DNA of 50,867 bases from Chiloscyllium plagiosum (taxonomy: Eukaryota), in contig NC_057752.1 of assembly GCF_004010195.1 (NCBI RefSeq), positions 3,102,222-3,153,088 of the forward strand. Direction: 5' to 3'. The notes under the pieces are model-generated. The model saw only the letters and a list, made by a program, of their open reading frames with translations. It made no database searches and was not told the origin of the DNA. A program made the translations under genes and the position numbers. Shown piece by piece: positions 14,976 to 48,667 of the stretch (its first letter is position 1; every line of letters begins with the position of its first letter).

Positions 14976-15078
14976 ACAATCCCGAGGAAAGGTCAACAGA
15001 CCCGAAACGTTAACTCTGATTTCGCCCCACAGATGCTGCCAGACCTGCTGAGCTTTTCCAGCAACTTCTGTCTTTGTT
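14976..15078 (+). mobile_element. Short Penelope-derived insert with degenerate hammerhead motif
   Basis: GGTCAACAGACC-CGAAACGTTAACT..AGATGCTGCCAGACCTGCTGAG; TSD GTCAATTTCA(A/G)GG at 14963-14975 and 15079-15091. Confidence 0.7.
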
Positions 15079-16194
15079 GTCAATTTCAGGGTCACCTGTC
15101 AGGAGCTGGACAGAAGGACAAAGCTCAGTCGACTGAGCAATGCTGCACTAGCAGCATTAGTTGAGGTAGCGAGGGTTTCTGTCTGTGATAGCAATCTGAA
15201 CAAACCAGACTTATGGATAAGCTATTGGAAGATTTGTAAAGAAGAGGTAAGAGATGGCATTGGATGGGTGATGTGGAGAGAAAAATAAAACAAAATGGGG
15301 AGGCAAAAATTCTCCATGCTGATGGTCTTCCACAGTTGACAAGCAACTTGGCAGCTAGCTCTCTCACCGAACCAATGTCATAACCAGCTATCAGATGTGT
15401 CCAGCTAAATATATCACTTAAACCTGATATCAGCAACTCAATGGAGAAATTAGGATCAGGTTACTTATGTACAGTGTTTATTGAGCTATTCAACAGCTCA
15501 CGAGAAAAATCAATAAAAACACACAAATTTACATCTGCCTGATAATTCAAATTCACTGTCACTGTCAGGATGTCCCTGCCTTTCACAAACGCCATGCAGA
15601 AAATCAAGATAAAAAAAGAACAAAATGGTAGATCTTACTAAATGTAGATTGAGGGCAAAATCCTCGATTCAGCTCTCTGGATGAGCCAGTTTTAAAAAAA
15701 ACAGGAGTGTTCCTTGCAACTCTTTGGTTCAGATCCCTTCAGAAGGTCAAGTGACTCCTTCCCTTACATCTCATGGATGGCGATGGCAGCTTGACTGCCA
15801 GGAGCCATAAGAAACAGCAGAAGCAGGCCCTCAGCTCCGTTCAATAAGATCACAGCCGAGTCGATTGTGGGCTTGACACTATTTCTCAGCCCAGAACCCC
15901 TGAATCTTTTGGCAAATCAACAATCCAGCTCAGCCTCCAATATGTTCAATCATCCCCGACTTCCAGCGCTCTGTGGCAGAGAATTCAAAACACCAACAAC
16001 CCTTAGAGAACCCGCAGTGATGTCTTCAAGAGGAGACACTTTAGTTTCAAACTGTGCCCCCTCGTTCCAGATTCTCTCCAAAGGGAGATATCCTCTCAAC
16101 ATTTATCCTGTCAGCCTCTTCAGAATTGCCTCATTCTACTAAATTCCACAAGATAGTCAATTGGCAGTAGATATTGAATATTGCTGAAAAATAA

Positions 16195-16315
16195 CCTTCT
16201 GATGAAGGAGCAGCGCTCCGAAAGCTAGTGCTTCCAATTAAACCTGTTGGACTATAACCTGGTATTGTGGGATTTTTAACTTTGTACACCCCAGTCCAAT
16301 ACCGGCACCTCTAAA
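16195..16315 (+). mobile_element. 121-bp Penelope-derived insert with hammerhead core
   Basis: CTGATGA-A-GGAGC-AGC-GCTCC-GAAAG-CTA (16199-16227); perfect 13-bp TSD TGCTGAAAAATAA (16182-16194, 16316-16328). Confidence 0.75.
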
Positions 16316-16412
16316 TGCTGAAAAATAAGCATTTCTTACAACTTTGCATCTTGCTCTCATCAGGACATTTTGTGAAATTTCTCCTGGAAAAAAGGAGAAC
16401 AATGTGGTTTAT

Positions 16413-17062
16413 TTTCTTATTTCTCTTTTTTTTCTTTTTCAAATTTCCACCACCAGGAAGAAAGAAAACACCCGAGTGGAGAGTCTCCTATTTAGAGTCA
16501 TAGAGATGTACAGCATGGAATATGTTTTTTTTTCATTTTTTTGTTTTTTTTTCTTTGTTGTGAGTGTGCAAATGTAAACAATGTGGTTTATTTTTTTTTT
16601 CTTCTTTTTTTCGCCCACCTCTCCCTGAACAACTCCAGGGTGTCGGTGGAGACCGCGTGCTCCTTCTCCAAGGACACCCGGGCCCTAACGTAACCGCGGA
16701 AGAGGGGCATCACTCTTGTTTTTTTTGGTGTGTGTGTATAGGTGTGAGACACAGTGAAAGACACAAAGTGCACGAATCCTTATTCAATTCCCACCACCAG
16801 TAAGATAGGAAAACACCCGAGTGGCCAGTGACAAACACTGTCCTTCACATCAAAGGGCAGTGCTGTGTGATCAAAACAGTGAAGGGAAGGGTAGGGACTA
16901 AATCAAAATAGAGTTGGAGGGGGAAATAATGCACTCCACTCCCTGCGGAGCCCACCTCTCCCTGAACAACTCCAGTGTGTTGGTGGACACCGCGTGCTCC
17001 TTCTCCAAGGACACCCGGGCTCTAACGTAACCGCGGAAGAGGGGCAGGCAGTCGGCCCTAAC
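16413..17062 (-). mobile_element. Cluster of three 5'-truncated Tx1-type LINE 3' fragments with A-rich tails
   Basis: Translates RADCLPLFRGYVRARVSLEKEHAVSTNTLELFRERWAPQGVECII; matches the 41147-41658 copy; poly-T tracts on + strand; AACAATGTGGTTTAT present three times. Confidence 0.8.
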
Positions 17063-17496
17063 AACAATGTGGTTTATACTGTGTAAAGGAGTGTGCTGAT
17101 TGGCCGGCAAGTGATAGAGGCTTTGCTATGGAGAATGCACCACTTAAAAATGATATCTAATGGATAACTGTCAAGGCATTGCCCTGAGCAATGAACCAGC
17201 GAATGGCTGTCATCCATTTTGTTGTGTTGAAACAGACACAGTCAGTGTACATGTACTTTCTGTCCACAAAGGAGTGGCCAATGACCAGCTTGGATCCACC
17301 AGAGGTAACACGCCTGGTTTAAAATTTAAACAAAGCTTGGCAGTTAACTGTCAGTCATCATTTAACTGATGCATTCCACAAAGCAATAAATACTGATCAG
17401 CTAGTGATGCCCACATCCCACAAATGAGTAGGGGTGGGTGGGTGGAGAGAACCAGCAACAGCCCACTCACCAACCAATTAGTACTTACAGTCAAAA

Positions 17497-18060
17497 GAGA
17501 TGTACAGTCCTTCGGTCCAACTCATCCATGCCGACCAGATAACTAGCCCCACCTGCTAGCACCCTGCCCATATCCCTCCAAACCCTTCCTACTCATATAC
17601 CCATCCAGATGCCTTTTAAATGTTGTAATTGTACCAGCCTCCATCACTTCCTCTGGCAGCTCATTCCATACATGTACCATCTTCTGTGTGAAAAAGTGGT
17701 CCCTTTTATATCTTTCCCCTCTCACCCTAAATCTATGCCCTCTAGGTCTGGACTCCCCCACCCCAGGGAAAAGACTTTACCTATTTATCCAACCATGCCC
17801 CACATGATTTTATAAACCTCTATAAAAGGTCACCTCTCAGCCTCCGACGCTCCAGGGAAAACAGCCCCATCCTATTCATCCTCTCCCTGTAGCTCAAATC
17901 CTCCAACTCTGGCAATATTCTTGTAAATCTTTTCTGAACCCTTTCAAGTTTCCCTTATAGCAGGGAGACCAGAATTTCACTTAGTATTCCAAAAGTGACC
18001 GAACCAATGTCCTGTACAGTACAACATGACCTCCCAACTCCTGTACCCAATGCTCTGACC
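17497..18060 (-). mobile_element. CR1/HER1 LINE 3' fragment
   Basis: GESRPRGHRFRVRGERYKR..WNELPEEV on the minus strand. Confidence 0.9.
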
Positions 18061-18084
18061 TTAAAAAAAAAAAGTATAAACATC

Positions 18085-18336
18085 GTGGGGCGAGGGAAGA
18101 GATTTTAAAAAAAGACGTGAGCGGCAATTTTCTTTTTACACAGAGTGGTTCTCACATGGAATGTGATGGATGTGAGGTACAATTACAACGTTTAAAAGAT
18201 ATTTGGATAAGTACATGAAGAGGAAAGGTTTGGAGGGATATGGGCCAGGAGCAGGCAGGTGGGACTAGGTTAGTTTGGGATTATGGTTGGCATGGACTGG
18301 GCGGACCGAAGAGTCTGTTTCCATACTGTATGACTA
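18085..18336 (+). mobile_element. CR1 LINE 3' fragment (second subfamily)
   Basis: GGTTTGGAGGGATATGGGCCAGGAGCAGGCAGGTGGGACTAG..TATGACT; like 33930-34332. Confidence 0.8.
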
Positions 18337-19227
18337 TGTTGTTCCCCTTGGTAGTCTTGTGAATTGCCCTGAAGACAGCAAGGTGAAAAACTTTGACAAA
18401 AAAAAAATGCATCTTTGACCCAACTGAAAGAGAGTCTGGGTAAGAGAGCCATTGAATCAAAGCAACTGAACGTCCGGACCCAATACACACTGACTGGCCT
18501 CACTACCTTCCTGACACCATTCATGCAACATTCATGCCCCTCTCTATTTAATCATTTCATGGAAAGGATTTCTGAAAGTCAAGTTTATAAATCCAGGATC
18601 AAGCCTGAACTGGTTCCGTATCTACAACCGATACAAATTACAGCCAAATTGCTTTCCCTTAAACAAATTACTTTCAGAATTAATTACTTTAAAAAGATTA
18701 AGTTTCATTCTCGTCAGCCTCAAAGTATTTGCTAATGCTATACATTAAATTCTCCATATCATGTTCAATATTTACTCATTTTCAAGTGAGTTCACACTGG
18801 TAACATTTTGTCCTCGGTGTTTTTTTTTCAGAATAAAATGTGTTTGTTCTTTGCTGAGTCTTCAACAATCATGTTTCTGCTCTCAAACTCTCATCCTAAA
18901 CCCTTCCTGCCTACCGCCTCTTTACATAGACTTATCCTTGCTACCCTTTGGACAGATCTTTGGTCATCTCCCCAGCTCTCTGCTCACTACCTATGCTACT
19001 CTTGCTGGGCTCTCTCGGACTATTTGCAACATAAGAATACAAGTTTGAAAGCTCCAAAAGGGAGAGCGTTACAAACTTCCCCTTCCCAACAAAATATATG
19101 GAATTGATGGGAATTCAACCCACGTCAATAAAGAAAGGTTTCAAATGTTATGGGTGAAATATTGTATCAAACATACAACATAGAAATGGGCCATTTGGCC
19201 CACGAGCCCCCTGTGTAAGAAGGGAGG

Positions 19228-21200
19228 GAGGGAGGCAGAGGACAGGAAACATAGGCCGGTTAGCCTGACCTTAGTCGTTGCTAATATCTTAAGAGCCCAT
19301 TATTAAGGAGGAGATTGCGGAGTACTTGAAAGTGCATGGTCAAATCGGGCTGAGTCAGCACCGCTTCGCCAAGGGGAAGTCATGCCTGACAAATCTGTTA
19401 GAATCCTTCGAGGAGCTAAGGAGCAAGTGAGACAAAGAGAGCCAGTGGACGTGATCCACTCAGATTTCCAGAAGGCCTTTAACAAGGTGCTGCACAGGAG
19501 GCTGTGAAGTAAGATAGCCCACAGTGTTAGGGGCAAGGTCCTGGCATGGGTGCAGTTTTGGCAGACTGGCAGAAGGCAGTGCATAGGGAACACAGGGGTC
19601 ATTTCAGGATGGCAACTAGTGACTAGTGGAGTTCCACAGCGATCTGTTTTGGGACCACAACTATTCAGGCTACACATTAATGATCTGCATGAAGAAACGT
19701 CAGGTATTTTTGCAAATGTTCAGATGGCATAAAGGGGCAGGTGGTGTTGAGGAAGTAGGGAGCCTGCTGAAGGACTTGGACAGGCTAGGAGAGTGGAAAA
19801 GAAGTGGCAGATAGATTACCCTGTGGGAAAATGTGAGGTCATGCACTTTGGTAGGAAGAAGAGGCGTTGGCTATTTTCTAAACGGGAAAAGGTGTTGGAA
19901 ATCTGAAGCACAAAGTGACTTGGGAGTCCCAGTTCAGGATTCTCTTCAGGTTAACATGCAGGTTCTGTTGGCAGTTGGGAAGGCAAATGCAATGTTAGCA
20001 TTCATTTCAAGAGGGCTAGAATACAAGAGCAGAGATGTACTGCTGAAGCTATTTAAGGGTCTTGCCAGACTGCATTTGGAATATTGTGGGCAGTTTTAGG
20101 CTCCATATGTCAGGAACAATGTGCTGGCATTGGAGAGAGTCCAGAGGAGGTTTACAAGAATGAGGAGAAAGTGAGAACTGCAGATGCTGGAGATCAGAGC
20201 TGAAAATGTGTTGCTGGAAAAGCGCAGCAGGTCAGGCAGCATCCAAGGAACAGGAGAATCGACGTTTCGGGCATAAGCCCTTCTTCAGGAATGAGGAAAG
20301 TGTGTCCAGCAGGCTAAGATAAAAGGTAGGGAGGAGGGACTTGGGGGAGGGGCGTTGGAAATGCGATAGGTGGAAGATCTGTGTTCATCCCTTGTGGTTG
20401 GAGGGTTCCTAGGCGGAAGATGAGGCGCTCTTCCTCCAACCGTCGTGTTGCTATGGTCTGGCGATGGAGGAGTCCAAGGACCTGCATGTCCTTGGTGGAG
20501 TGGGAGGGGGAGTTAAAGTGTTGAGCCACGGGGTGGTTGGGTTGGTTGGTCCGGGTGTCCCAGAGGTGTTCTCTGAAACGTTCCGCAAGTAGGCGGCCTG
20601 TCTCCCCAATATCGAGGAGGCAACATCAAGTGCAGCAGATGCAATAAATGATGTTTGTGAAGGTGCAGGTGAATTCGTGGCGGATATGGAAGGATCCCTT
20701 GGGGCCTTGGAAGGAAGTGAGGGGGGAGGTGTGGGCGCAATGTTTGCATTTCTTGCGGTTGCAGGGGAAGGTGCCGGGGAAGGTTACAAGAATGATCCCA
20801 GTGGCAAAGGACTTGTCATATGAGGAGCAATTAAAGAACTCTGGGTCTGAATTCAATGGTGAGAGGGACATCTGATTGAAACTTACAGAACACCGAGAGA
20901 ACTGGACACAGTGGACATGGAGAAGGTGCATCTGTTAGTGAGAGAGACTAGGACCCAAGGGCACAGCCTTCGAGTAAAAGGGATGATCCTTCGGAACAGA
21001 GACGAGGAGGATTTCTTCAGCCAGAGGGTGGTTCATCTGTGGAACTCATTGGCACAGAAAGCTATGGAGGCCAAGTCATTAAGACAGAGCTAGATTGGTT
21101 CCTGATTAGTAAGGGGATTAAGGGTTATGGGGAGAAGGCAGGAGAATGGGGTTGAGAAATGTATCAGCCATGATCAAATGGTGAAGCAGACTCAGTTGGT
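19228..21200 (+). mobile_element. Degraded CR1 LINE ORF2 (RT) fragment, split by a Penelope insertion
   Basis: Motifs DFQKAFNKV, VTSGVPQRSVLGP, KANAMLAFISRGLEYKS, RTQGHSLRV..FFSQRVVHLWNSL; many stops and frameshifts. Confidence 0.9.
20164..20783 (-). mobile_element. Penelope-like element 3' fragment (Cys-rich linker + GIY-YIG endonuclease + terminal repeat with hammerhead core)
   Basis: PGTFPCNRKKCKHC..FTCTFTNIIYCICC and AQHFNSPSHS..RRLEEERLIFRLGTLQPQGMN; CTGAAGAAGGGCTTATGCCCGAAACGTC at 20288->20261; TSD TTACAAGAATGA (20152-20163, 20784-20795). Confidence 0.9.
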
Positions 21201-22236
21201 GGGGGGGGGGGGAAATATATATATGGGTCATAGGAGTTAGAGTCATAGAGCATGGAAACAGACCCTTCAGCCCAACTCATCCATGCTGACCAGGTTTCCC
21301 AAAGTGAACTACTCCCTTTTGCCTGTATTTGGCCCATACCCATCTTGTGGAATCTCCTCCCAATCCTATCTACATGATCACAGCCTTTTGGCAAATGTTT
21401 CCATCCCCTTCTCTCTCAATGCTGCTTCCATTTGAAAGCACTGGAACAAGAACTAGAGTGAAGTCATAAACGTTGAACTTCATGGCAAACTGCTGTGGAC
21501 CCTTGTAGTCCCATTGCTGGCAGCAAAACGGGAAGCCCGTTTGGGAAATGCAACAAGTCAAGAATTCATAACGTATGCTCATGGAGTTAACTGGTCAACG
21601 AGGTCACCTCTGGATCACAGGATGGAGAAGTTGAGCTCAGAAATGAAGGCAAGACCCCAGTGTCATACTGAAAGAGGAGAATGAGCATCGTTAACACTTG
21701 GAATTCATCTCATTGGCTATCCTTCCTTCAGAATCACTTATAGACACCAATCTTCATTCTATTGTGAGGAAGATAATTTCATAAAGTTGTGACAACGCTC
21801 CAGATCCCTTGTGTACCAGACACAACACTAACATCAATTTGGACACAAATGGAGATTACAAATGGCTTCCTACACCTCTGGATGCATACTGCTTCCTTAG
21901 GAGACAAATTGGGTACAAGCCTTTGAACAATACAACAAGTAACCCTTTTCCCATTTTATACTGCACAATTCCACATTACAATTGCCCTAGAGTCTTGGAC
22001 AATTAAAAGAGTAATCTCCAAATCAATGCTATGAGCAAATTCAGGATAAAAATTATAGGGGCATTCAAAACATTTTTTCAAATGGAACAACTTTATTTAT
22101 CAGTTATACACTGATTGGAGATGGAGAATAATGGACTGCTTGACAATTTATAAGCCAATACATCATTGGAGCAAGAATCATCCAATCACTTAATGGATAA
22201 CCCATTGGCTGTGGAAAGGCTGACCATCAAAAGAAA

Positions 22237-22600
22237 AACAATAGAACATAGAACAATACAGCACAGAACAGGCCCTTCGGCCCACGATGTTGTGCCGAAC
22301 ATTTGTCCTAGCTTAAGCACCCATCCATGTACCTATCCAATTGCCGCTTAAAGGTCGCCAATGATTCTGACTCTGCCACTCCCACAGGCAGCGTATTCCA
22401 TGCCCCCACCACTCTCTGGGTAAAGAACCTACCCCTGACATCCCTCCCATACCTTCCATCCTTCACCTTAAATTTATGTCCCCTTGTAAAACTCTGTTGT
22501 ACCCGGGGAAAAAGTTTCTGAACATGGAATACACAGCACAGGAATGTACAGCTGCAACATCACTTCACGACTCTTGAATTCAATCCCTCTGCTAATGAAC
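22237..22600 (-). mobile_element. CR1 LINE 3' fragment ((CTATGTT)n-tail subfamily)
   Basis: ATAGAACATAGAAC tail, CCCACCACTCTCTGGGTAAAGAACCTACCCC; inverse-similar to 47735-48065. Confidence 0.8.
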
Positions 22601-23873: not shown

Positions 23874-23879
23874 AGCTTG

Positions 23880-25664: not shown

Positions 25665-25905
25665 CAAAGTTTGTGAGAAGATTTGTAGCTCGGGTGCTCG
25701 TTGCTGTGGTTCTGTTCGCCGAGCTGGGAATTTGTGTTGCAGACGTTTCGTCCCCTGTCTAGGTGACATCCTCAGTGCTTTCCTCCGGAGGAAAGATCAC
25801 AGAAGCGCTTCAGAGGAGGCTCCCAAGCACTGAGGATGTCACCTAGACAGGGGACGAAACGCCTGCAACACAAATTCCCAGCTCGGTGACCAGAACCACA
25901 ACAAC
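25665..25905. mobile_element. Palindromic Penelope-derived insert with hammerhead motifs on both strands
   Basis: 84-bp inverted arms 25697-25780 / 25825-25908; TSD GAG(C/T)CTAAAGAT at 25653-25664 and 25906-25917. Confidence 0.8.
25739..25778 (-). ncRNA. Candidate minimal type I hammerhead ribozyme
   Basis: Minus strand reads GCA-CTGAGGA-T-GTCACCT-AGAC-AGGGGAC-GAAAC-GTC-TGC: intact core, stem II, 3-bp stem I, loopless palindromic stem III, GUC site. Confidence 0.65.
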
Positions 25906-27061: not shown

Positions 27062-27670
27062 CATTCATTAATATAGCACCTTTCACAACCTCAGGATGCA
27101 CCAAAGCACTTTACAGCCAGTGAAAGCACTTATGAAACAAACAGTCCCTGCTTTAATGTCAAAAACACAGCTACCTCCTACCAACAGCAATGCAGTCATG
27201 ACCAGATAACCTCGGAGAAAGTGAGGACTGAGGATTCTGGAGATCAGAGTCAAAAAGTGTGGTGCTCGAAAAGCACGGCCGGTCAGGTAGCATCCGAGGA
27301 GCAGGAGAGTCGACGTTTCGAGCATAAGCTCTTCATGCTCAAAAAGCCCCTCATTCCTGATGAAGAGCTCACTCTTGAAACGTTGACTCTCCTGCTCCTC
27401 GGATGACCAGATAGCCTGCTGAGTGAAGTTAATGGGGAGGTATTAATTTGCCCATGGCTCTCTTTCTGCTCCTTGTTCTTCTTTAAAAATAGATCCATAG
27501 GAATTTTGTACGTCCACCCAAGAAGGAAGGCAGGACACTGGCTCAATGGGTCATCTGAACGTCAGCACCTTGAACAGCTCCCTCAGCACAGCACAGTGCT
27601 GGAGTCTGAGCTTTGATTTTGCACTCAGAGTGGGACATGAGCCCACAACCTTCGGATTCAGTGTCACCAA
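27062..27670 (-). mobile_element. Deu-domain SINE, interrupted by a Penelope-derived palindrome
   Basis: ATATAGCACCTTTCACAACCTCAGGATGCACCAAAGCACTTTACAGCCA..ATGACCAGATAA; tRNA-like head GAGTGGGACATGAGCCCACAACCTTC at ~27630-27655. Confidence 0.7.
27213..27402. mobile_element. Partly palindromic Penelope-derived insert with hammerhead-like motifs
   Basis: CATCCGAGGAGCAGGAGAGTCGACGTTTC..CTGATGAAGAG..GAAACGTTGACTCTCCTGCTCCTCGGATG; 15-bp TSD ATGACCAGATA(A/G)CCT (27198-27212, 27403-27417). Confidence 0.8.
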
Positions 27671-29171: not shown

Positions 29172-29774
29172 CACCGTGAAGTTCTCAGGACCACATTCCT
29201 CCATCCGGTACCGACAGTCCTTCAGCATGTCCTCCAACTGATGACTAGTCCGGTTGAACAACTCGTACATGCTGTAGGGGGCACCGTCGTTCCTGACCGG
29301 GGGCGCCAGCTGGAACCCTGGATCCATGCCCTTGGTGTATCCCATCAACGAGCCGGCCAAAGCCAAGTCCATGGATGTGATCTTGGAGCGCCGGAAGCGG
29401 TTGAAGTTGCAGAGGGTCACCGCCGGGAAGAACAGGAAGGGGCTGTCCATCTCGTCGAGAGCCGTGATATGATGGTACTCCAGATAGTACATGACCCGGT
29501 CCATCACCTGGTACAGAAAGATGGCGAGGGAAGACAGGAACGCGCAGCCCCACAAGACTTGCCGGACACCACAGCCTCCTTTCACAAAGATGTGGCCCAT
29601 CCCATGCAGGTTGGAATTGGCAGCAAACTCAGCCAGGCTGACCCCAGTGGACTGGTGGTCTTCCGCATGGCCGTCCTCTTCAGAAAACTGATCAAACCTC
29701 TCCTCCCTTCTCCTCTCCTCTGCTTTCTCATCGTCGGCAGCGAAAGAAATAGTGCAAAAAATCTGGACTGGCAT
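29172..29774 (-). CDS. ASIC1: Acid-sensing ion channel (DEG/ENaC family), b-type first coding exon, 201 codons: N-terminus, TM1 and first part of the ectodomain; most like ASIC1b (paralogue assignment less certain than family)
   Basis: ATG at 29774 with A at -3; MPVQIFCTISF N-terminal motif; pre-TM1 LHG..HIF; TM1 LWGCAFLSSLAIFLYQV; YYLEYHHITALDE; FPAVTLCNFN; DPGFQLAPP; HQLEDML..C....CGPENFTV, then phase-0 donor GTG|GTAAGT (29171-29166) at the position where ASIC b exons join (V)FTRYGKC. Confidence 0.93.
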
Positions 29775-32955: not shown

Positions 32956-33214
32956 AAAAAACAGTTTTCAGGATCATGAATCTATGTTACACTTTCGCCA
33001 CATTCAGTTTCATGCTCTCTTGCTGAGGCCCACTGCCCACTGCCCAACATAATCAGGGATCTGCTCAGCTGTCACTGATGTCAATGACTGGCAGTCAAAA
33101 TCAAAAAGGTCACAGCTTGAAAACACCTTGCAGTTGTTGGAAGTTGGAACAAAGATAGAAATGGCAACAGGTCAGGGAGACAGAGAGTTAGGATCGATGG
33201 CCTGTGCTCAGAAC

Positions 33215-33415
33215 TCTCATGAAAAGGTCACTGAACCCGAAACGTTAACTCTGTGTTTTTCTCTCTGCAGATGCTGCCAGACCTGCTGAGTTTCTCCAGC
33301 CACTTCTGTTTTCCTTTCTGATGGAAAGGTCACTGAACCCAAAACGTTAACTCTGTTTCTCTCTCTCTCTCTCTCTCCACAGATGCTGCCGAGTTTCTCC
33401 AGCAATTCCTGTTTA
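33215..33415 (+). mobile_element. Tandem pair of ~100-bp Penelope-derived units with degenerate hammerhead motifs
   Basis: AAGGTCACTGAACCC(G/A)AAACGTTAACTCTG..CAGATGCTGCC..GAGTTTCTCCAGC twice; related to 14976-15078. Confidence 0.7.
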
Positions 33416-37596: not shown

Positions 37597-38369
37597 CCAC
37601 CCCCTCATCAGGGGTAGGGGAAATGAGGAAACTGGTGAAATCCGAGTTGTCTGACAGGTTCATTTGGAAGCACTAGCTTTCGGAGCGCTGCTGCTTCTAC
37701 AGGTAGCTGTCCCCACCCCTATCCTGGCCCCCACTCAGAGTGAAACATTCTGGCCCCCTGGCTTGTCAGAGGGTGATACTAATCCAGGCTGTGGTACTTG
37801 TCAAATAGGGAAAGGTAATATCAGTGGGATGAATCGATGCCCTCTGTGTGCCACCCATATGACCACCCACGGTTCCCTCAGGATGTGGAAGAGCTTGGAT
37901 TCCTCGCTTGAGCTACTAATCAGGTCATGACCACGTGCAGCTTTGGAACGTACCGATGCTGAGAACACAACTTCGTTAACCAGCTTCAGTTAACAAGGAA
38001 TCAGACCTGCTGTTCAGTTCAGGCCGCTTGTTAGGAGCTCACCTGCCTAGCTTTCTCGCACGGGAAAATTGACAAAAAAAGAGAGTCCGCCATCGATTTT
38101 TTTCTGTCATATGAACCTGTCAAACTGATGGACTGTACTTCTTTTCAGCTGACTGCAATGATTGAGTGAAATTTAAAAAAAACATAAAATATTCCATGGT
38201 TTGCTTTACAAGAATACAATGTACAGCAAGGGCTTCGCAAAAGGAAGCTGAATGCTTCATCAATGCCCCTTCATCATCTGCTCTGATAAATGGCTGGCTT
38301 CCCACCCAGCAAGGAGCATCAGCCTTCATATTCATTCTCTGGCATCAGCCCATGTCGACATGTCAGTCA

Positions 38370-38790
38370 AGAACACACCACAGCACCTCTATTTCGTCCA
38401 CAAAGACTCTCCCCAATTTTTACAGATGTACCACAGAAAGCATTCTATCCAGATGGATCACGGCTTGGTACGGCAACTGCTCTGCCCAGGGCTGTGAGAA
38501 ACTACAGGGAGTTGTGAACACAGCCCAGTCCATCACCCAAACCAACCTCCCATCCACTGGCTCCATCTACACTTCCCACTGCCTCGGGAAGGCAGCAACA
38601 TCATCAAAGACCCCTCCCACCCTGAGTAGACAGGCAGGAGGCTGGAAGAACACAGCAAGCCAGGCAGCACCAGGAGGTGGAGATGTCAATGTTTCAGGTT
38701 AACCTTTCTTCAGGACCAGCTGAGGTTATACTCTTTTCCAGCCTCTGCTGGTGGGCAGAAGATAAAAGTTTGAACAGTCGATGAATAGCC
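38370..38790 (+). mobile_element. Rex1/Babar-type LINE fragment, interrupted by a Penelope-derived piece (~38626-38716)
   Basis: NFYRCTTESILSRWITAWYGNCSAQGCEKLQGVVNTAQSITQTNLPS..IYTSHCLGKA is typical of the Rex1 ORF C-terminus; insert matches the left arm of 44832-45050. Confidence 0.8.
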
Positions 38791-39869: not shown

Positions 39870-40051
39870 AAAAACCGAAAGGACTGCGGGTGCTGTAAAT
39901 CAGAAACAAACGCGGAAATGGCTGGAAAAGCTCACCAGGTCTGGAAGCATCCAGTGAAGAGAGAAATCAGAATTAACCCTGAAGAGGGTCGCCCGACCCA
40001 TAGCGTTAGCTCTGATTTCTCACTTCACGGATGCTGCCAGACCTGCTGAGC
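39870..40051. mobile_element. Palindromic Penelope-derived insert, degenerate hammerhead
   Basis: GCTCACCAGGTCTGGAAGCATCC..GAGAAATCAGA / TCTGATTTCTC..GGATGCTGCCAGACCTGCTGAGC arms around CTGAAGAGGGTCGCCCGACCC. Confidence 0.65.
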
Positions 40052-40491
40052 CATTTCTGCTTAAAGCGAAGTCACATGACATCTCAAAGCCTGAGGCCTC
40101 CTCACTTCCAATGCTTTATTTGCCACAACTGGGATTTCCAACATTATTTCCAACTCTATTTTCTAATGTTACCCTGTGGAGGAAAAGTTGCATAGGATGG
40201 AATGGAGCCCAAATACCTAGAAAGAGGTTGGTCAATGATGAAGTAGAAAGTATTAGTAATGAGTTCACCTCAAACGCTGGGGGCGTACTATTTTAAGAGA
40301 GCAGCAATCTAGCCTGGGAAAATGCTCCTCGTTGATTGGATGCACTAGCAGAGAATTAAGGGCGTAGGCTTGGCTCAGCATACGCACCTCTGGATTACAG
40401 GAAAAGTTCCAATCAAAGACTTGAGCCAATAAGCTAGGCTGACACTCCTCTGCTGTACTGAGGGAGTGCTGCGCAATTGGAGGCACTGTCA

Positions 40492-41110: not shown

Positions 41111-41146
41111 GCCTTTCGATAGGTTGACAAATAAAAGCCACATTTT

Positions 41147-41658
41147 AGCCCCACGCTCCTGATCTTCGGGCACCCGGTACGGAGGAGGGAGGGCAGGTCT
41201 GAAGACCTCCTCGTGGGTCTACTCCTGGGCCTGGCCAAACTGGCCATCAACAGGTCCAGGCAGCGGGCCGTGGAGGGAGTCGTTAGGGCCGACTGCCTGC
41301 CCCTTTTCCGCGGTTACGTTAAATCCCGGGTGTCCTTGGAGAAGGAGCACGCGGTGTTGACCAACACCCTGGAGTTGTTCAGGGAGAAGTGGGCGCCGCA
41401 GGGAGTGGAGTGCATTATTTCCCCCTCCAACTGTATTTTGATTTAGTTCCTACCCTCCCCTTCACTGTTTGATGTGAAGGGCACTGCTTGTCACTGGCTA
41501 CTCGGGTGTTTTCCTATCTTCCTGGTGGTGGAAATTGAATAAAAATTTGTGCATTTTGTGTCTCTCACTGTGTCTCACACCTGCACACACACACACACCA
41601 TGGGTGCTGGGGAAAAAATAAAATAAAATAAAGAAATAAAAGAAAAAAAGAGTATAAA
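41147..41658 (+). mobile_element. 5'-truncated Tx1-type LINE with A-rich tail
   Basis: FSPTLLIFG..GLLLGLAKLAINRSR..LFRGYV..W ORF2 C-terminus, stop at 41446, AATAAA, A-rich tail; 14-bp TSD AAAAGCCACATTTT (41133-41146, 41659-41672). Confidence 0.85.
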
Positions 41659-41977
41659 AAAAGCCACATTTTCTCTTTCAGGTGAACATAAAAGATCGCA
41701 GGACACGATTTCAATGGAGAGCAAAGCTCAAACCATTAACTCAGTTTCTCTCTCTCTCCTCAGATCTCTCAGTGTGTCTCACACCTGCACACACACACAC
41801 ACACACACACACCATGGGTGCTGGGGATAAAATAAAATAAAAAAAAGAAATAAAAGAAAAAAGAGAAAAAAAAAGGCACATTTTCTCTTTCAGGTGAACA
41901 TAAAAGATCGCAGGACACGATTTCAATGGAGAGCAAAGCTCAAACCATTAACTCAGTTTCTCTCTCTCTCCTCAGAT
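41561..41977. repeat. Tandem duplication of ~205-212 bp spanning the Tx1 3' end and its flank
   Basis: 41561-41765 vs 41766-41977; differences mainly in (CA)n and A-tract lengths. Confidence 0.92.
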
Positions 41978-42122
41978 ACATCCAGACCTGCTGAGTTTCT
42001 CCAGTGTTCTCTGTGTCTGTCTGAAATTTCCAGTATCTGCAGGGATTTGCTTTGACTTGAAACTCAGGTCACACTCTGGGCTGTGGTGGACCTGTGTAGT
42101 GTTAGGCATTGCACATTGTGTC

Positions 42123-42334
42123 GAGAGTGGTGCTGGAAAAACACAGCAGGCCAGGCAGCATCCGAGGAGCAGGGGATTCGACGTTTCAGGCATAAGCCCT
42201 TCTTCAGGAAAGAAGGGCTTATACCCAAAATGTCGATTCTCCTGCTCCTCGGATGCTGCCTGGCCTGCTGTGTTTTTCCAGCACCACTCTCGACTCTGGT
42301 TTCCAGCATCTGCAGTCCTCACTTTCTCCTAATC
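42123..42334. mobile_element. Palindromic Penelope-derived insert with mutated hammerhead motifs
   Basis: ~85-bp inverted arms centred near 42207; TSD GCACATTGTGTC (42111-42122, 42335-42346); same family as the terminus at 20164-20290. Confidence 0.85.
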
Positions 42335-42834
42335 GCACATTGTGTCTCAATGTCTGAATTCAAAACATTTTAATTGTACGTTTTGTCTTTTCATATGTTC
42401 CCTTGCCGTTATAATTCAGACAAATCTGCTACCAGCCTGTACACACTGAAAATGAAGCCTAACAATTCACTTACTTATTTCAGAATGGAATCTTTTGAGC
42501 ACTTTCTTAATCATGCAGAAGGAGTACTTGGTGTCTATTTATTATCGTCACAACTTCATTTGGTCCCATTGGTTTGGACCTCATCCCAGTGCAGCAGCCT
42601 CCTGGCTGCGCAAACACAGATAGAGTGCTAACTTGGCCAAACAGCAAGGGATGCTGGGTACGTTGGCAACATAAAGCTCTGAAGCCACAAAGCCCACACA
42701 CCAGACCTAGTGCAAACACAGCAGCCAGGTGCTAATGACATTAGCATCATGTACAAAGGCAACAGTTATCCTGGACAGACATGCCCCCAACAATTTATCT
42801 GCTCAATAAAGGAGAGCCTGGTCCACAAAGAAAC

Positions 42835-43170
42835 TATAAGACCATAAGACATAGGAGCACAACTAACACCATTCATCCCATCGAGTCTGCTCTGCGATTC
42901 AACCATGGCTGATAAGTTTCTCAACCCTATTCTCCTGTTTTCTCCCCGTAACCCTTGATCCCTTTGATACTCAAGAACCTATCTATCTCAGTCTTAAATA
43001 TCCTCAATGACCTGGCCTTCCGTGGCAATGAATTCCCCAGATTCCCCAATCTCTGAGTGAAGACATTTCTCCTTATCTCCATTCTAAAAGGTCTTCCATT
43101 TACTCTGAGGCTGTGCCTTCGGGTCCTCATCTCTTCCTACCAATCTTCCCAACATCCACTCAGTCTTATG
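42835..43170 (-). mobile_element. Old CR1-type LINE 3' fragment
   Basis: (CATAAGAC)n tail; RTRRHSLRV..FTQRLGNLGNSLP. Confidence 0.8.
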
Positions 43171-44831
43171 GTATTTGTAGTGATTTGACCACTTCAGTAT
43201 TGTGGGGACACCTGGGCAAACACATTTGGAACACTCTGGTCAGAGTGGTTGAAATTGTTTTAAGGAGAGAGACGCCAACATGGAAAAGCCCCAGGAGGTG
43301 CATTCTTAATGCAAGCAAGCAAGTGGTAAATTCAGCAGCGACACCTCAAGGTAGGCAGGAAGAGTCGCAGAGTCTGCTGATCAGCAGAAGGCAAGAGCAA
43401 GCCACTGCAGCAGTCTCTGGCCAGCGTGACCATGGAGCAGAGGCTGTGGTCACTGAAATGACTCTACAGACATCGGTGTCCCATCACCCTTTATTTACAC
43501 CCACCCAGCTCCCTCACAGCCAAAATGAACTGAACCTGTGACCCTCCTGTCAGCCAGGACTCCCTGATCAGACCTGATTAACAGCCCCAACTCATATTCT
43601 CTGGTGTCCACTGGGCTGATCTCGTTACAATCATTCCAGTCAGCACCATTGCCTTTGGCTCTGGTACCTAGACAGAAAGCCCCAAGGTCAGTCATTATTC
43701 CTGCTAATGAGTAGGTGATATAATTGATGACTCAAACAGCCTTAGGCCATAGAAACATCAGAAGGGTTAGAATTTGAAGTGGTGGACACAGATTCAAGAC
43801 TCACTTTCGATAAGGAATGAGATAACTACTTCAAGGAGCAGAATGAAAATAAAAACCACTGGGAGATGGGGAAAGGAAAGTAGACTGGGACTCACTCTTG
43901 GAAAGAGCCAGGGCAGACCAGATGGGCTGAGTGGCTGTAATATTTACGAATCCATGATGTCAGCCTGTTTGAACAATGCGCCGATGTCAGGGAAAGGTCC
44001 CAGAGATCACAGCACAGCAAGTAATGTCAGCGATAGCTTCACGTCAATGCCAAAGCTCTCCTGAGATGTTGGCACTGTTTCCCTGACTGACTAGGCCCCA
44101 GGCCTCCATTACAACCAACGGTGGGCTCACTGACTCAAAGCCAGTGACAATCATCGCAGCTTCACATTGTTCTGCTGAGGACAAGCACCTGGGGAAGCGA
44201 TGGCCTTGCAGTATTATCACTGAGCTGCTCACCCAAAAGAGCCAGATAATGTCCTAAGGGCCTGTGTTCGAATCCCACCTTGGCAGGTGTGGAATTTGAA
44301 TTCAATAAAAAATCTGGAATCTAATGATAAACAGGAGTCCTTCAAGGAAGGGAACTGCTGGTCTGGCCTATGTGTGACTCCAGACCCCCAGCAATGTGGT
44401 TGACTCCCGGTGCTCTCTGGGGTAGGCAATAAATGCTGGCCGAGCCAATGATTCCCTTGGGCAATTCTTTAAAAAAAATGGAACAGGCACCCATCGCAAG
44501 CAGGGTAACATCTCTGCTGGATGTTACAAAATAAATGCTATCTTGTTTGTAACTCTTCCTCATCAGATCGTATTGATTTGACAGAACAGTTACAGTGTCA
44601 CCTCCTTTGGAGACGATACAGTGAAGGGAATCGAGAACAGGAGAGTCTCAGGATATGGGAGCTCTCAGGACTGCGATGGGGGAAGAACGTCTCCGCTCAA
44701 AGGGCTGTGAGTCTGGGGAGTTTTCTGCCCCAAAGGGATGTTGAATAAATTAGACAGAGGAATCAAGGGATTAGCAGTGTGGATGGGAAAGTCAAGTCAA
44801 GTCAGAAGACCAGCTATGGTCATATTGAATG

Positions 44832-45050
44832 TAGACAGGCAGGAGGCTGGAAGAACACAGCAAGCCAGGCAGCATCAGGAGGTAGGGAAGTCGATGTTTT
44901 GGGTGGAACTCTCCTTCAGGACTGAAGAGGGGTTAATACCCGAAACGTCAACTTCTCCACCTCCCGATGCTGCCAGGCTGGTTGTGTTCTTCCAGCCTCC
45001 TGCCTATCTACCTTGGATTCCAGCATCTGCAGGTTTCTTTTTTGTCTCTA
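44832..45050. mobile_element. Palindromic Penelope-derived insert nested in a CR1 tail; intact hammerhead core on + strand
   Basis: Arms GTAGACAGGCAGGAGGCTGGAAGAACAC.. / ..GTGTTCTTCCAGCCTCCTGCCTATCTAC; CTGAAGA-G-GGGT-TAAT-ACCC-GAAAC-GTC at 44922-44949; degenerate 23-bp duplication at 44809-44831 / 45051-45073. Confidence 0.8.
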
Positions 45051-45189
45051 ACCAACCATGGTCGTATTGTATGGCGGAGTAGTGCTGACGGGCAGAATGG
45101 CCTGCTCCTGTTCCTTGATTCGGAGTGAGGTATAATGATGGCCTGTGTTTCCTGTGCGCCCCGTGTGTGACATTTTGCCAGTGTGTATG

Positions 45190-46340
45190 TCATAGAGTCA
45201 TAGAGATGTACAGCACAGAAACAGACCCTTCGGTCCAACCCGTCCATGCTGAACTGATATCCCAACCCAATCTAGTCCCACCTGCCAGCACCCAGCCCTT
45301 ATCTGTCCAAACCCTTCCTGTTCAAGTACCTATCCAAATGCCTTTTAAATCCTGTAACTGTACCAGCCTCCACCACTTCCTCTGGCAGCTCATTCCATAC
45401 ACGCACCACCCTCTGCGTGAAAATGTTGCCCCTTAGATCTGGCTTAGAAAGAATGGAAATGAAGAGACATTTCTTTAGCCAGAGAGTGGTGGGCCTGTGG
45501 AATTCATTGCCACGGGAAGCAGTGGAGACCCGGACTTTAAATGTCTTCAAGGCAGAGAATGACAAATTCTTAACCTCGCAAGGAATTAATGGATACGGGG
45601 AGAGTGTGGGTCAGTGGAATTGAACCACCCATCAGCCATGATCAAATGGCGGAGTGGCCTCGATGGGCCAAATGGTCTTGCTTCCACTCCTATGTCTTAT
45701 GGTCTCTTTTATATCTTTCCCCTCTCACCCTAAACTATTATGGTCTTATGGTCTCTTTTATATCTTTCCCCTCTCACCCTAAACTAATGCCCTCTAGTTC
45801 TGGACTCCCCCACCCCAAGGAAAAGACTTTGTCCCTCATGATTTTATAAACCTCTATAAGGTCACCCCTCAGCCTCCAACACTCCAGGGAAAACACCCCT
45901 CAGCCTATTCAGCCTCTCCCTACAGCTCAAACCCTCCAACCCTGGCAACATCCTTGTAAGTAATTTCTGAATCCTTTCAAGTTTCACAACATCTTTCCGA
46001 TAGGAAGGAGACCAGAATTGCACGCAATATTCCAACAGTGGCCTAACCAATGTCCTGTGCAGCCGCAACATGACCTCCCAACTCCTGTACTCAATACTCT
46101 GACCAATAAAGGAAAGCATACCAAACGCCTTCTTCACTATCCTATCCACCTGCGACTCCACTTTCAAGGAGCTATGAACCTGCACTCCAAGGTCTCTTTG
46201 TTCAGCAACACTCCCTAGGACCTTACCATTAAGTGTATAAGTCCTGCTAAGATTTGCTTTCCCAAAGTGCAGCACATCGCACTTATCTGAATTAAACTCC
46301 ACCTGCCACTCCTCAGCCCATTGGCCCATCTGGTCCAGAT
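45190..46340 (-). mobile_element. CR1/HER1 LINE 3' ~0.85 kb with an opposite-strand CR1 tail nested at ~45437-45703
   Basis: ORF 45862-46329(-) WQVEFNSDKCDVLHFG..RDLGVQV..VRPLLEYCVQFWSP; host breaks at CCCCTTAGATCT and resumes GGTCTCTTTTATATC. Confidence 0.92.
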
Positions 46341-47416
46341 CCCGTGTGCCGGATGTTTCTCGGTGTTAGCTCCTCCTTGGCTAACGGGCATTCCCCTGGG
46401 ATGGGCACAAGCACTGGGAGTTGGCACTCTTAACATCTGCCCTCTGACCTTCCCACCGACTGCCGTTTCTGTGCAGGTCAGAGAAGGGGGCCTCAGAGAG
46501 TACCGTTCGGCACAAACTACCCGTCTGCCCATTGGCAGCCAAAAGGCAGCCACAGAAGTGGGAGGCCAGTTCCTATCGGGTGCCAATGATTGGAGCATTC
46601 GGAAGGAATCAAATGCAGGGGGTCCCTCACCATGCCTCCAGTCAGTGCCTCCGAATCTGATAACGCCAGGGCTTTGAATCAAGTACCTGATCTGGGAATA
46701 CACTGTGCGAATAATCTTCTGAGCGCGTAAACAAATCGAAATCAAAGTTACTCAAGTAAAGTCAAACTGGGCCAACATCACTTCTATTTCCCCTGTAGTA
46801 AAGCAACATGCTTCATTTTTTTTAAACAAGACCAGGACTGTTACAAAAATTGTAGCTAACCGTGTTATGGGATTTAATTCATTAGAATTGCTTTTGACGT
46901 TTCTGTATTAGGCAAAGCAGCCTGGGGTGAGTACTCCTTTGAAATATGGCTGCTGTTATTTTATGAATTCATAATAAGAATTTATCAGGATCAAATCAAA
47001 ACTTAATTGGATAAGTGACATTTACACCACGCTTTATAGATCTGGCTGCTATTTTTAGCTGTTTTGATTTAACTAAAGGTGTCAGTGCTGTCTCCTGTAC
47101 ATTTTATCCACAGGATGCAGCAACACAATGAATCTTCAGAACACCTTTGAAATAATATCACTTTCCTGTTAATTATGTTCTCAGCCATGATAAATACCAG
47201 AGCGACGCAAACATTTACTGGTCCTCATGGGCTGTGCTATACATCAAGTGTTTAATGAAAGTCTCTTGCCGGCAGGATTTCAGACATGTTCAAAATTTGC
47301 CCCTTATCCTTTAATTGCCTTGGTTTCACTGTTCTATTTGGGTCATTGCAGTCTGTGGTTTTCATTCCATGGTTTTCCGCTCAGAATGCAGAAGGATTAC
47401 TGTCCATGCTCATTAT

Positions 47417-47712
47417 ATAGAATCCCTAATGTGTGGAAACAGGCCCTCAGGCCCAACCCCCGACCCATACCCCGACATTTCCCTCTGACTCATGCACCTA
47501 ACCCACACACCCCTGAACACTACGGGCAATTTCAGCGTGGCCAATCCACCTGACCTGCACATCTTTGGACTGTGGGAGGAAACCGGAGCACCCGGAGGAA
47601 ACCCACGCAGACACTGGGAAACTCCACACGGACAGTCGCCCGAGGCTGGAATTGAACCTGGGACCCTGGCGCTGTGAGGCAGCAGTGCTAACCACTGAGC
47701 CACCATGCCACC
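47417..47712 (-). mobile_element. HE1-type V-SINE
   Basis: Reverse complement of head, V-domain and tail. Confidence 0.9.
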
Positions 47713-47734
47713 CAAAGAATTGTTGGCCATCCAA

Positions 47735-48065
47735 CAAGATGATTAGGGGGTTAGACAGGGTTGACAGTGTGAACCTTTTCCCGCGTATGGAGTCGGGTAT
47801 TACAAGGGGGCATAGCTTTAAATTAAGGGGGGGTAGATATAGGACTGAAGTTAGGGGTAGGTTCTTCACTCAGCGAGTCGTAAGTTCATGGAATGCCCTG
47901 CCAGTAGCAGTGGTGGACTCTCCCTCTTTATGGGCATTTACGCGGGCATTGGATAGGTATATGGAGGATAATGGGTTAGTATAGGTTAGGTGGGCTTGGA
48001 TCGGCGCAACATCGAGGGCCAAAGGGCCTGTACTGCGCTGTATTCTTCTATGTTCTATGTTCTAT
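47735..48065 (+). mobile_element. CR1 LINE 3' fragment ((CTATGTT)n tail)
   Basis: TRGHSFKLRGGRYRTEVRGRFFTQRVVSSWNALP; TTCTATGTTCTATGTTCTAT tail. Confidence 0.9.
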
Positions 48066-48572
48066 CCGAGTCACCAATGGTGGCAAGCCAGTGGGTACAG
48101 ATGCCAATCCCAGGCAAATGTTCAGGAGGAGATGGTGATGTGGTGGTAATGGCTTTGGACCAGCAGAATGTAATAAATCTGGAATTTAAATCTCAACTTC
48201 CCCGGCATCTGACACTTTTTTTTGTCCCCTCGAAAATCTGTCTGGTTCACTAATACCCTTGAGGGAAGGGAATCTGCTGTCCGTACCCAGTCTGGCCTAT
48301 TTGTGACTCCAGACCCTGCAGCAACGTGCCTGATTCTTAACCACCCTCCGAAATGACTGAGCAAGTCGCTCGGTTCAAGGGGCACTTAGGGACGGGGGAC
48401 AATTGCTCATCTGGTGCTCATGTAGCATGAACGAAATGTTTCAAAAAATCAACATGGTGGCTCTGTGAGGATTGGGGCATGGGCTAACCATCCAGGGGCA
48501 AAGGGATATCGGAAGGAGGAAGTCCGAAGGTGTGGGGAGGGAAAAGCTTGGGCCCCATCAACAGCGGAATTG

Positions 48573-48667
48573 AGAGTGCGGTGCTTGAAAAGCACAGCCG
48601 GTCAGGCAGCATCCGAGGAGCAGGAAAGTCGAGGTTTCGGGCATAAGCCCCTCATCAGGAATGAGGC
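48573..48667 (-). mobile_element. Penelope terminal-repeat fragment with mutated hammerhead
   Basis: Minus strand CTGATGAGGGGCTTATGCCCGAAACCTC; same family as 20164-20290 and 42123-42334. Confidence 0.75.

What the first reader, a model, noticed from the sequence alone, without database searches (positions are those of the whole stretch)
14976..48667. Dense, multi-family population of short hammerhead-bearing Penelope-derived retroposons
Seen: at least 10 inserts of ~90-240 bp (14976, 16195, 25665, 27213, 33215 x2, ~37650, ~38626, 39870, 42123, 44832, 48573) plus the terminus of the coding fragment at 20164 carry CTGANGA-[stem II]-GAAA-[AC/GT or AG/CT]-H or a decayed form. They fall into about four unrelated sequence families, and seven have recognisable TSDs. 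Established: Penelope-like elements carry minimal type I hammerheads in their terminal repeats, with a loopless palindromic stem III thought to act as dimers. Inference: these are non-autonomous or heavily truncated ribozyme retroposons, at about one per 4-5 kb, inside or beside a neuronal gene.
Basis: partly seen in the sequence, partly recalled or inferred. Interest (0 to 1): 0.72.

Follow-up and report, generated by a model that had tools for sequence, protein, structure and literature searches.

The report
Shark Penelope retroelement end stubs
The short ribozyme-bearing inserts are real, but they are stump-sized copies of the end piece of Penelope-like jumping genes in a shark genome, a kind of element already described, and there is no sign that they act on the neighbouring ion-channel gene.

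Summary
Observation confirmed: 13 inserts (19 arms) carry a minimal type I hammerhead or its decayed form. Six cores are perfect versus 0 in 40 shuffles, stem II covaries, and 8 of 13 have target-site duplications beyond chance. Corrections: there are three lineages, not four unrelated ones (A/B/C align). Two belong to coding Penelope-like elements: A ends a GIY-YIG fragment (20164-20777), and E's arm encodes the N-terminus of a reverse transcriptase ORF (95%). Five inserts are head-to-head two-arm palindromes with a 35-40-nt tail on one arm only, the published Penelope signature. Ends are fixed rather than random: 12 of 16 arms start -11 to +4 nt from the core, only one near the cut site. Over 10^5 contigs per run pile loose ends at the tail, no-tail and hammerhead-front positions. 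Best reading: by-products of internally primed reverse transcription on uncleaved Penelope RNA, decaying neutrally in and beside an ASIC gene. Not shown to be retrozymes; cleavage untested. This scan noted the same thing on many other pieces of this genome. New member of a known kind; low interest.

The parts
14976..15078 (+). Lineage C single arm, no tail, core decayed (U4 changed); starts 3-6 nt before C3
   Evidence: (TSD 16/19, p=0.001)
16195..16315 (+). Lineage D single arm, perfect core with AGCT stem III palindrome; starts 4 nt before C3, stem I 5' strand poor
   Evidence: (TSD 13/13, p=0.001)
20164..20777 (-). 5'-truncated coding Penelope-like element: CX4CxxC linker, GIY-YIG-type endonuclease frame (20778-20374, one stop), 3' UTR, perfect hammerhead (C3 20288, cut site 20261/20260), downstream hairpin and tail; lineage A
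   Evidence: (TSD 16/18)
25665..25905 (.). Lineage E head-to-head two-arm insert; minus arm has perfect core and tail and encodes the first 35 codons of an RT ORF; plus arm lacks the tail and reaches about 45 nt upstream of C3
   Evidence: (TSD 11/12, p=0.004)
27213..27402 (.). Lineage A two-arm insert; minus arm with tail starts inside the core; plus arm has a perfect core and is 3'-shortened
   Evidence: (TSD 14/15)
29172..29774 (-). Host gene: first coding exon of an acid-sensing ion channel (ASIC); context, not part of the elements
33211..33414 (+). Lineage C head-to-tail dimer, both cores damaged, no significant TSD; left boundary approximate
37654..37708 (-). Lineage D partial arm, core with one mismatch, next to the assembly gap; boundaries approximate
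38627..38719 (-). Lineage B single arm, no tail, CpG-type change in stem III; starts 6 nt before C3; 5-bp TSD not significant
39872..40062 (.). Lineage C two-arm insert; minus arm with tail starts at about the cut site (the only such arm); plus arm has a damaged core and no tail
   Evidence: (p=0.10)
41915..42056 (+).
42123..42331 (.). Lineage A two-arm insert; minus arm perfect core, no tail; plus arm starts inside the core and has the tail
   Evidence: (TSD 14/15)
44832..45050 (.). Lineage B two-arm insert with palindromic junction; plus arm perfect core with tail, minus arm no tail
   Evidence: (TSD 19/23)
48570..48669 (-). Lineage A single arm, no tail, one change in stem III; starts 11 nt before C3
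   Evidence: (TSD 8/8, p=0.013)

Best explanation
The inserts are minimal insertions of the terminal module (pseudo-LTR) of endonuclease-bearing Penelope-like elements (PLEs) from three lineages: A/B/C (Neptune-type by the Zn-finger linker of the attached ORF), E (Poseidon-like by layout) and D. Shown: Penelope homology of A and E, fixed 3' ends at two positions about 35-40 nt apart, 5' ends concentrated at the front edge of the hammerhead, TSDs, head-to-head pairs with one tail. Inferred from published PLE biochemistry: the element's RT/GIY-YIG protein binds its RNA near the ORF start, nicks the target, and starts cDNA at one of two internal sites 60-105 nt downstream of the hammerhead. It copies through an uncleaved hammerhead and stops a few bases past it, giving a 90-130-nt insert. 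A second cDNA joined head to head gives the 190-240-nt palindromes. Why copying stops there is not shown: the RNA's 5' end (start site) lies there (about 45%), RT stalls or switches template at the hammerhead fold (about 40%), or other causes such as re-copying of short source copies (about 15%). After insertion the copies decay neutrally, and in two-arm inserts the hammerhead would be buried in a long hairpin, so most are not working ribozymes.
For: Core far above chance; stem II 89% paired, 3 of 4 pairs with both-side changes, 0 of 500 shuffles reach the covariation score, slid controls lower. The A terminus is continuous with a GIY-YIG fragment 90% identical to a bamboo-shark protein and about 50% to RT+GIY-YIG proteins. 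[quoted passage not shown] 5 of 5 two-arm inserts are head to head with the tail on one arm, as in PMC3846280 and PMC8557442. 12 of 16 arms with a definable 5' end start -11 to +4 from C3, and 1 of 16 near the cut site (hand-set offsets). In three DNA runs and one RNA run, listed loose ends pile at 20163/4 (tail), 20203-8 (no tail) and 20283-20296 (hammerhead front); depth drops 2.6- to 5.5-fold just upstream of the core. PMC11167929 found uncleaved RNA to be the dominant template in vitro.
Against: No coding partner was found for B (two unrelated repeat proteins), and the lineage-A arm frame found no protein, so 'start of the ORF' is shown for E only. C and D were not searchable as protein. 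Part of the depth step is subfamily divergence: the loose end at 20296 in X4 has a shared continuation (agreement 0.48). Only 24 of about 2,690 loose-end rows and 15 of 218 joint rows were shown, and Logan depth is no copy number. 4 of 16 arms fall outside the 5' cluster; the cluster window was chosen after seeing the data, and arms of one insert are not independent. The downstream hairpins show no covariation beyond shuffles, and single arms fold no better than shuffles (z from +0.3 to -1.9). PMC3846280 explains head-to-head junctions by self-priming on an antisense template, a different route from the one inferred here. Clade names rest on motifs and layout; no tree was built.
Confidence: 0.8

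Rival explanations
1. At least some lineages (most plausibly C, also B or D) are true non-autonomous SINE- or retrozyme-like families: short masters are transcribed, processed by dimeric hammerhead cleavage (perhaps circularised) and mobilised in trans by a Penelope protein.
For: Fixed ends; a head-to-tail dimer at 33211-33414; head-to-tail joints 20293->20162/20195 in other loci; no ORF-linked copy of B, C or D in the window; trans mobilisation by pLTRs alone is reported (PMC3846280 passages); the 2026 bioRxiv preprint 10.64898/2026.07.22.740005 derives animal retrozymes from pLTRs and finds them in one cartilaginous fish.
Against: A and E, which look the same, are ends of coding elements; 1 of 16 arms starts at the cut site; 1 of 13 inserts is a tandem, and both its cores are damaged; hammerheads are the minimal PLE type, not the canonical type of retrozymes in PMC7229834; 94% of RNA reads laid run on into unrelated sequence and both directions occur, as expected for read-through of dispersed copies.
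Confidence: 0.12
2. Ordinary random 5' truncation of Penelope cDNA; the apparent pile-up at the hammerhead comes from searching by the hammerhead motif.
For: PLEs are known to be heavily 5'-truncated (PMC8557442, PMC4209133); 20164 (-490), 25665R (-45), 27213R (-20) and 39870L (+25) end elsewhere; the upstream step is partly subfamily divergence.
Against: Profile searches that do not need the core found no further downstream-only copies at E<0.001; under geometric truncation with means of 50-1000 nt a 16-nt window takes at most 12% of ends, against 12 of 16 seen (illustrative only); loose ends at 20292 have heterogeneous flanks (agreement 0.31 in X1).
Confidence: 0.06
3. The cluster is kept by the host: intronic hammerheads or hairpins tune ASIC pre-mRNA.
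For: Two intact cores (20288, 25775) are in the sense of the ASIC transcript downstream of the exon and share the ACGT palindrome; all 13 inserts lie beyond position 14,900 (p about 0.01, post hoc).
Against: 13 of 19 cores are damaged, several at CpG; orientation is mixed; 93,000-125,000 contigs per run lay on one family's terminus, also in another species, so such inserts are genome-wide; minimal PLE hammerheads cleave poorly even as dimers (PMC4209133) or need the element's protein (PMC11167929).
Confidence: 0.02

Closest known systems
Minimal hammerheads (min-HHR) in pLTRs of metazoan Penelope-like elements (Cervera and de la Pena 2014, PMC4209133; read parts 1-2 of 4)
   Same: Type I core, unpaired base before stem II, G10.1-C11.1 pair, palindromic 15.2-16.2 without loop 3, many solo copies and opposite-strand pairs 100-700 bp apart, several consensus families per genome, reported in Neptune and Poseidon of fishes.
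   Different: No shark is named in the parts read; here the opposite-strand pairs are only 0-60 nt apart, and density (one per ~4 kb, >10^5 contigs for one family) looks far above the 4,000-9,000 motifs reported for coelacanth and Xenopus, though those counted intact motifs only.
Insertion architecture of EN+ PLEs: inverted pLTR, palindromic junction, optional 30-40-bp tail, 8-10-bp TSD (Arkhipova 2013 PMC3846280; Craig 2021 PMC8557442; passages read)
   Same: Head-to-head arms, tail on one arm, pLTR includes the first codons of the ORF, TSDs, solo pLTRs.
   Different: Here most inserts consist of the pLTR arms alone with no ORF body; TSDs run 8-23 bp; a pile-up of 5' ends at the hammerhead front was not seen in the passages read.
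Anole Poseidon element PAc (Frangieh 2024, PMC11167929; read parts 1-2 of 4; supplementary figure 2 gave only labels)
   Same: ORF starts at stem II, two internal RT start sites define the tail, uncleaved RNA is the template; lineage E matches this layout within a few bases.
   Different: Mechanism is shown for PAc in vitro only; for lineages A-D the ORF start was not located.
Animal non-LTR retrozymes (Cervera and de la Pena 2020, PMC7229834, passages; Li et al. bioRxiv 10.64898/2026.07.22.740005, parts 1-3 of 5)
   Same: Non-coding, type I hammerhead, pLTR-related, dispersed monomers exist.
   Different: Retrozymes are tandem arrays of 170-400-nt units, mostly with canonical hammerheads, that yield abundant circular RNA; here units are 90-130 nt, mostly single or inverted, with minimal and mostly damaged cores.

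Membership tests
EN+ Penelope-like element | C-terminal GIY-YIG endonuclease with CCHH motif | tested here: met
   Lineage A fragment 20778-20374: homologues carry PF01541; the fragment itself gave no Pfam hit
EN+ Penelope-like element | Reverse transcriptase in the same ORF | tested here: met
   Not in the window; shown through relatives: P0004 (RT+GIY-YIG, 51% to the A fragment) and P0045 (RVT_1 E=4e-11, N-terminus 95% to the E arm). Not shown for B, C, D
EN+ Penelope-like element | Minimal type I hammerhead in the terminal repeat | tested here: met
EN+ Penelope-like element | Inverted pLTR with one-sided 30-40-bp tail and TSD | tested here: met
   5 of 5 two-arm inserts; TSD beyond chance in 8 of 13 inserts
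EN+ Penelope-like element | RT groups with PLE clades in a phylogeny | not tested
   No tree built
Neptune clade (lineage A/B/C) | CX2-5CxxC Zn-finger-like linker before GIY-YIG (shared with Nematis) | tested here: met
   CX4CxxC; definition from PMC8557442; does not separate Neptune from Nematis
Poseidon clade (lineage E) | ORF starts at hammerhead stem II as in PAc; no Zn-finger linker | tested here: inconclusive
   Layout matches; P0045 ends before the linker region and is 24% identical to P0004
Animal non-LTR retrozyme | Tandem units, each with an intact type I hammerhead | tested here: not met
   1 of 13 inserts is a tandem dimer and both cores are damaged; some tandem joints exist elsewhere
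Animal non-LTR retrozyme | Canonical hammerhead with stem III loop and loop 1-2 contacts | tested here: not met
   All recognisable cores are loopless ACGT/AGCT types with 2-4-bp stem I
Animal non-LTR retrozyme | Abundant unit-length linear and circular RNA | tested here: inconclusive
   One poly(A) single-cell run, 2% read: 4,255 of 12,955,460 reads laid, 94% run on into unlike sequence, no end pile-up; such a library would miss short circles
Animal non-LTR retrozyme | No coding partner sharing the sequence (non-autonomous master) | tested here: inconclusive
   Not met for A and E; open for B, C, D
Active hammerhead ribozyme | Self-cleavage as monomer or dimer | not testable with these tools
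   Needs in vitro transcription assay

The most novel reading that the evidence does not exclude
The fixed 5' boundary just in front of the hammerhead, not at its cut site, shows that in shark Penelope elements the folded ribozyme marks the end of the copied unit (as RNA start or as an RT stop and template-switch signal). The 90-130-nt hammerhead-to-tail module is then a self-sufficient replicon, and lineages B, C or D have become orphan non-autonomous families that outnumber their parents many times over.
Probability: 0.25. Interest if true: 0.5.

Novelty: new member of a known kind. Interest (0 to 1): 0.22.

Why it matters
As annotation it is ordinary: Penelope ends with minimal hammerheads are a described class. 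What is useful is that sharks offer a very large natural sample of insertion ends, which could settle an open point in Penelope biology: what the hammerhead does if the template is copied uncleaved. The match of lineage E to the anole element's layout also extends the internal-priming model to a shark element. Nothing here points to an effect on the ASIC gene.

Tried and rejected
No own genome is held, so no genome-wide consensus or end histogram could be made. Rfam at E<=5 gave 2 chance matches and no hammerhead. My first motif scan mis-registered stem III and was replaced. A degenerate A/C-lineage pattern found 0 loci in viral contigs and 3 in metagenomes, none similar to the window. No RNA holder was listed for the ASIC exon region; this is no evidence on expression. 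Pfam gave nothing on the two window pieces of the GIY-YIG frame. Protein searches with the open frames of A and B arms found no related protein, a weak negative. The conserved downstream stems predicted by RNAalifold had no covariation beyond shuffles, so they remain a lead. A motif search for later ASIC exons found none in the window (motifs recalled), so the intronic position of 14976-27402 is inferred from the splice donor. RNA letter changes were raised for all transition types, so no editing is claimed. A 3' splice-site-like stretch 25 nt upstream of C3 at 20314 was considered as a cause of the 5' boundary and dropped: it does not coincide with the pile-up. Literature searches: hammerhead+Penelope+shark, 4 papers, none apparently on this by title, one checked by passages; Penelope+Chiloscyllium, 2 papers, the one checked has a passing mention; hammerhead ribozyme+cartilaginous fish, 1 unrelated; Penelope+Neptune+Poseidon+shark+retrotransposon, 0; further searches. 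Repbase and Dfam could not be searched, and subscription papers are not held, so these families may already be catalogued. Lunse et al. (dimer cleavage) was not held and is known here only from passages and the reference list of PMC6765202. Supplements of the bioRxiv preprint (shark retrozyme families) and the image in PAc supplementary figure 2 (copy-end coverage) could not be seen and may bear on novelty of the 5' pile-up.


Full report
Setting. The window is shark DNA: the two best protein matches to the coding fragment and both matches to the lineage E frame are labelled Chiloscyllium punctatum by their source (90% and 68%; 95%). It is rich in other short repeats. The only host coding piece found is a 201-codon exon at 29172-29774 on the minus strand, an acid-sensing ion channel. 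It ends at a GT donor, so the inserts at 14976-27402 are inferred to be intronic; those at 33211-48669 lie upstream of this exon. No whole genome was available.

Is the motif real? A scan for the hammerhead core with stem II of at least 3 pairs and a palindromic loopless stem III gave 6 perfect hits against 0.0 in 40 shuffles, and 10 against 0.6 with one mismatch; at two mismatches the excess shrinks (12 against 3.3). BLAST and profile searches give 13 inserts made of 19 arms, about 2.5 kb in all. Thirteen of 19 arms have an imperfect core, and no lineage C arm passes at one mismatch. Several changes are CpG-type at G12 and in the ACGT palindrome (read), which fits neutral decay. On the 15-arm alignment of A, B and C, stem II is 89% paired with both-side changes in 3 of 4 pairs; 0 of 500 shuffles reach the covariation score and slid structures score lower; stem I is only 54% paired, partly because several arms start inside it. 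These sequences are related, so the shuffle count is not a probability. TSDs beat random pairs of ends in 8 of 13 inserts (p<=0.013) and not in 5 (boundaries set by hand).

How many families? A (20164, 27213, 42123, 48573), B (38626, 44832) and C (14976, 33215, 39870, 41915) align from the core through a shared downstream block to a shared tail; mean identity between them is 60-66%. D (16195, 37650) and E (25665) share only the hammerhead plan. So there are three lineages, one with three subfamilies.

Link to coding elements. The insert at 20164-20777 carries a frame with a CX4CxxC linker, a GIY-YIG-type segment and the CCHH residues. Its relatives carry GIY-YIG and, when long enough, RT. The linker is the Neptune/Nematis mark in PMC8557442. 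Lineage A short forms are this element's last 95-130 bases. For E, the minus arm is an open frame from an ATG at the start of stem II to the tail end 105 nt later. It matches the N-terminal part of a 656-residue RVT_1 protein at 95%. That is the layout of the anole element PAc, whose ORF starts at stem II, is cut 26 nt in and is reverse-transcribed from 111-118 nt in (PMC11167929). The same test found nothing for the A and B frames; C and D have no stop-free frame long enough.

Anatomy. Five inserts (25665, 27213, 39870, 42123, 44832) are head-to-head pairs of arms; in 5 of 5 only one arm has the 35-40-nt tail. PMC3846280 describes the same for rotifer Penelopes: inverted pLTR, palindromic junction, optional 31-bp tail, pLTR holding the first codons, 8-10-bp TSD. 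PMC8557442 gives it as general. PMC4209133 reports solo minimal hammerheads and close opposite-strand pairs genome-wide and attributes them to truncated PLEs.

Fixed or random ends? Of 16 arms with a definable 5' end (3 of 19 left out: 33215a, 37650, 41915), 12 start between 11 nt before and 4 nt after C3; the others start at about -490, -45, -20 and +25, the last near the cut site (offsets read by hand; tally). Profile searches found no extra downstream-only copies at E<0.001. I laid three DNA contig sets and one RNA run on 20130-20820 at 80% likeness: 124,558 contigs in X1 (84% of the run read), 93,445 in X4, 117,894 in X11 (another species), and 4,255 of 12,955,460 RNA reads. The best-supported loose ends are at 20163/20164 (tail end; 1,063 and 586 contigs in X1), 20203/20207 (no-tail end; 525 and 692) and 20292 (424), with 20283 and 20296 in X4, that is the front edge of stem I. 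None of the listed rows sits at the cut site 20261/20260; the nearest (20257, 30 contigs) continues as lineage B sequence. Depth falls 3.1-, 2.6-, 5.5- and 4.5-fold from the core bin to the next bin upstream, and RNA depth over the core is about 18 times the ORF median. Opposite-strand joints (20193->20287, 20199->20292) and head-to-tail joints (20293->20162, 20293->20195) show both arrangements elsewhere in the genome. Limits: only 24 of about 2,690 loose-end rows were shown, counts were saturated in X1 and X4, contig depth is no copy number, and the 20296 end in X4 has a shared continuation, so some copies simply belong to a subfamily with another upstream sequence. The RNA run is a fragmented poly(A) library: 94% of laid reads continue into unlike sequence, both directions occur, and no start or end pile-up was reported; it cannot show cleavage or circles.

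Mechanism. Shown here: Penelope origin of A and E, two fixed 3' ends, a preferred 5' end in front of the hammerhead, TSDs, one-tailed palindromes. Taken from PMC11167929: the protein nicks both strands, primes internally at two sites that define the tail, and uses uncleaved RNA; the hammerhead cleaves only with the protein. Inferred: priming at the RNA's terminal module and stopping just past the hammerhead yields 90-130-nt inserts, and a second cDNA yields the palindromes. The stop may be the RNA's start (Penelope has an internal promoter in Drosophila, PMC2377424 passages, although there the start is well upstream of the hammerhead) or a stall at the fold; these cannot be told apart here. 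That copies keep the 5' half of the core argues that cleavage at that hammerhead did not make their template. In two-arm inserts the arms pair over 27-85 nt and would bury the core.

Comparison and verdict. The elements pass the PLE tests that could be run and fail the tandem and canonical-hammerhead tests for retrozymes. Non-autonomy of B, C and D is open. The searches listed under Tried and rejected found no paper on shark PLE hammerheads, but repeat databases were not searchable. This scan's notes report the same kind of insert, and the same 5' pile-up, on other pieces of this genome (103 of 187 notes fit the words, 8 shown; 2 shown); these are unchecked notes and not independent support, but they are a lead that the density here is not local. 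One of them pointed me to PMC3846280. Verdict: real, a new member of a known kind, interest 0.22; the one point worth a specialist's time is where the 5' ends stop.

Noticed in passing
window 1-14900: No lineage A/B/C arm and no intact core in the first 14.9 kb, while all 13 inserts lie beyond (p about 0.01, post hoc).
   Followed up: partly
window 5496-5530 (minus): A hammerhead-like core with a 2-bp stem II and non-palindromic stem III; no homology to the lineages; decayed copy of another family or chance.
   Followed up: partly
window 37611-37649 (minus): Short stretch resembling the end of a lineage A-type ORF (tblastn E=0.88) joined to the partial D arm beside the assembly gap.
   Followed up: partly
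window 36897-37597: Assembly gap of 701 N flanked by short C-rich repeats.
   Followed up: no
window 41570-41970: Local tandem duplication of about 200-240 bp holding a CA-repeat element end, an A-rich tail and part of the decayed C arm; the same repeat family occurs at about 16480-17065.
   Followed up: no
window 20146-20795, 38600-38760, 44790-45090: Three Penelope inserts sit inside older LINE-like repeats (identity of those repeats recalled, not tested), which would allow relative dating.
   Followed up: no
window 20314-20335 (minus): Polypyrimidine tract plus AG 25 nt upstream of the hammerhead core, like a 3' splice site; Drosophila Penelope has an intron ending at hammerhead stem I (PMC4209133).
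   Followed up: partly
window 20164-20250 (minus) and matching arms: A long-range stem pairing the block after the hammerhead with the tail, enclosing a 5-bp hairpin, is predicted in A, B and C; the no-tail end falls between them. Conserved but without covariation support.
   Followed up: yes
window 29172-29774 (minus): The ASIC exon's N-terminus looks like the alternative first exon of ASIC1b (recalled, not tested); no later exon motif was found in the 29 kb downstream.
   Followed up: partly
window 32225-32265: Possible very decayed lineage C fragment lacking the hammerhead 5' half; below significance.
   Followed up: partly
window 49367-49582 and 50468-50830: CA/CT-rich low-complexity block present twice about 1.1 kb apart (87% over 183 nt).
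   Followed up: no
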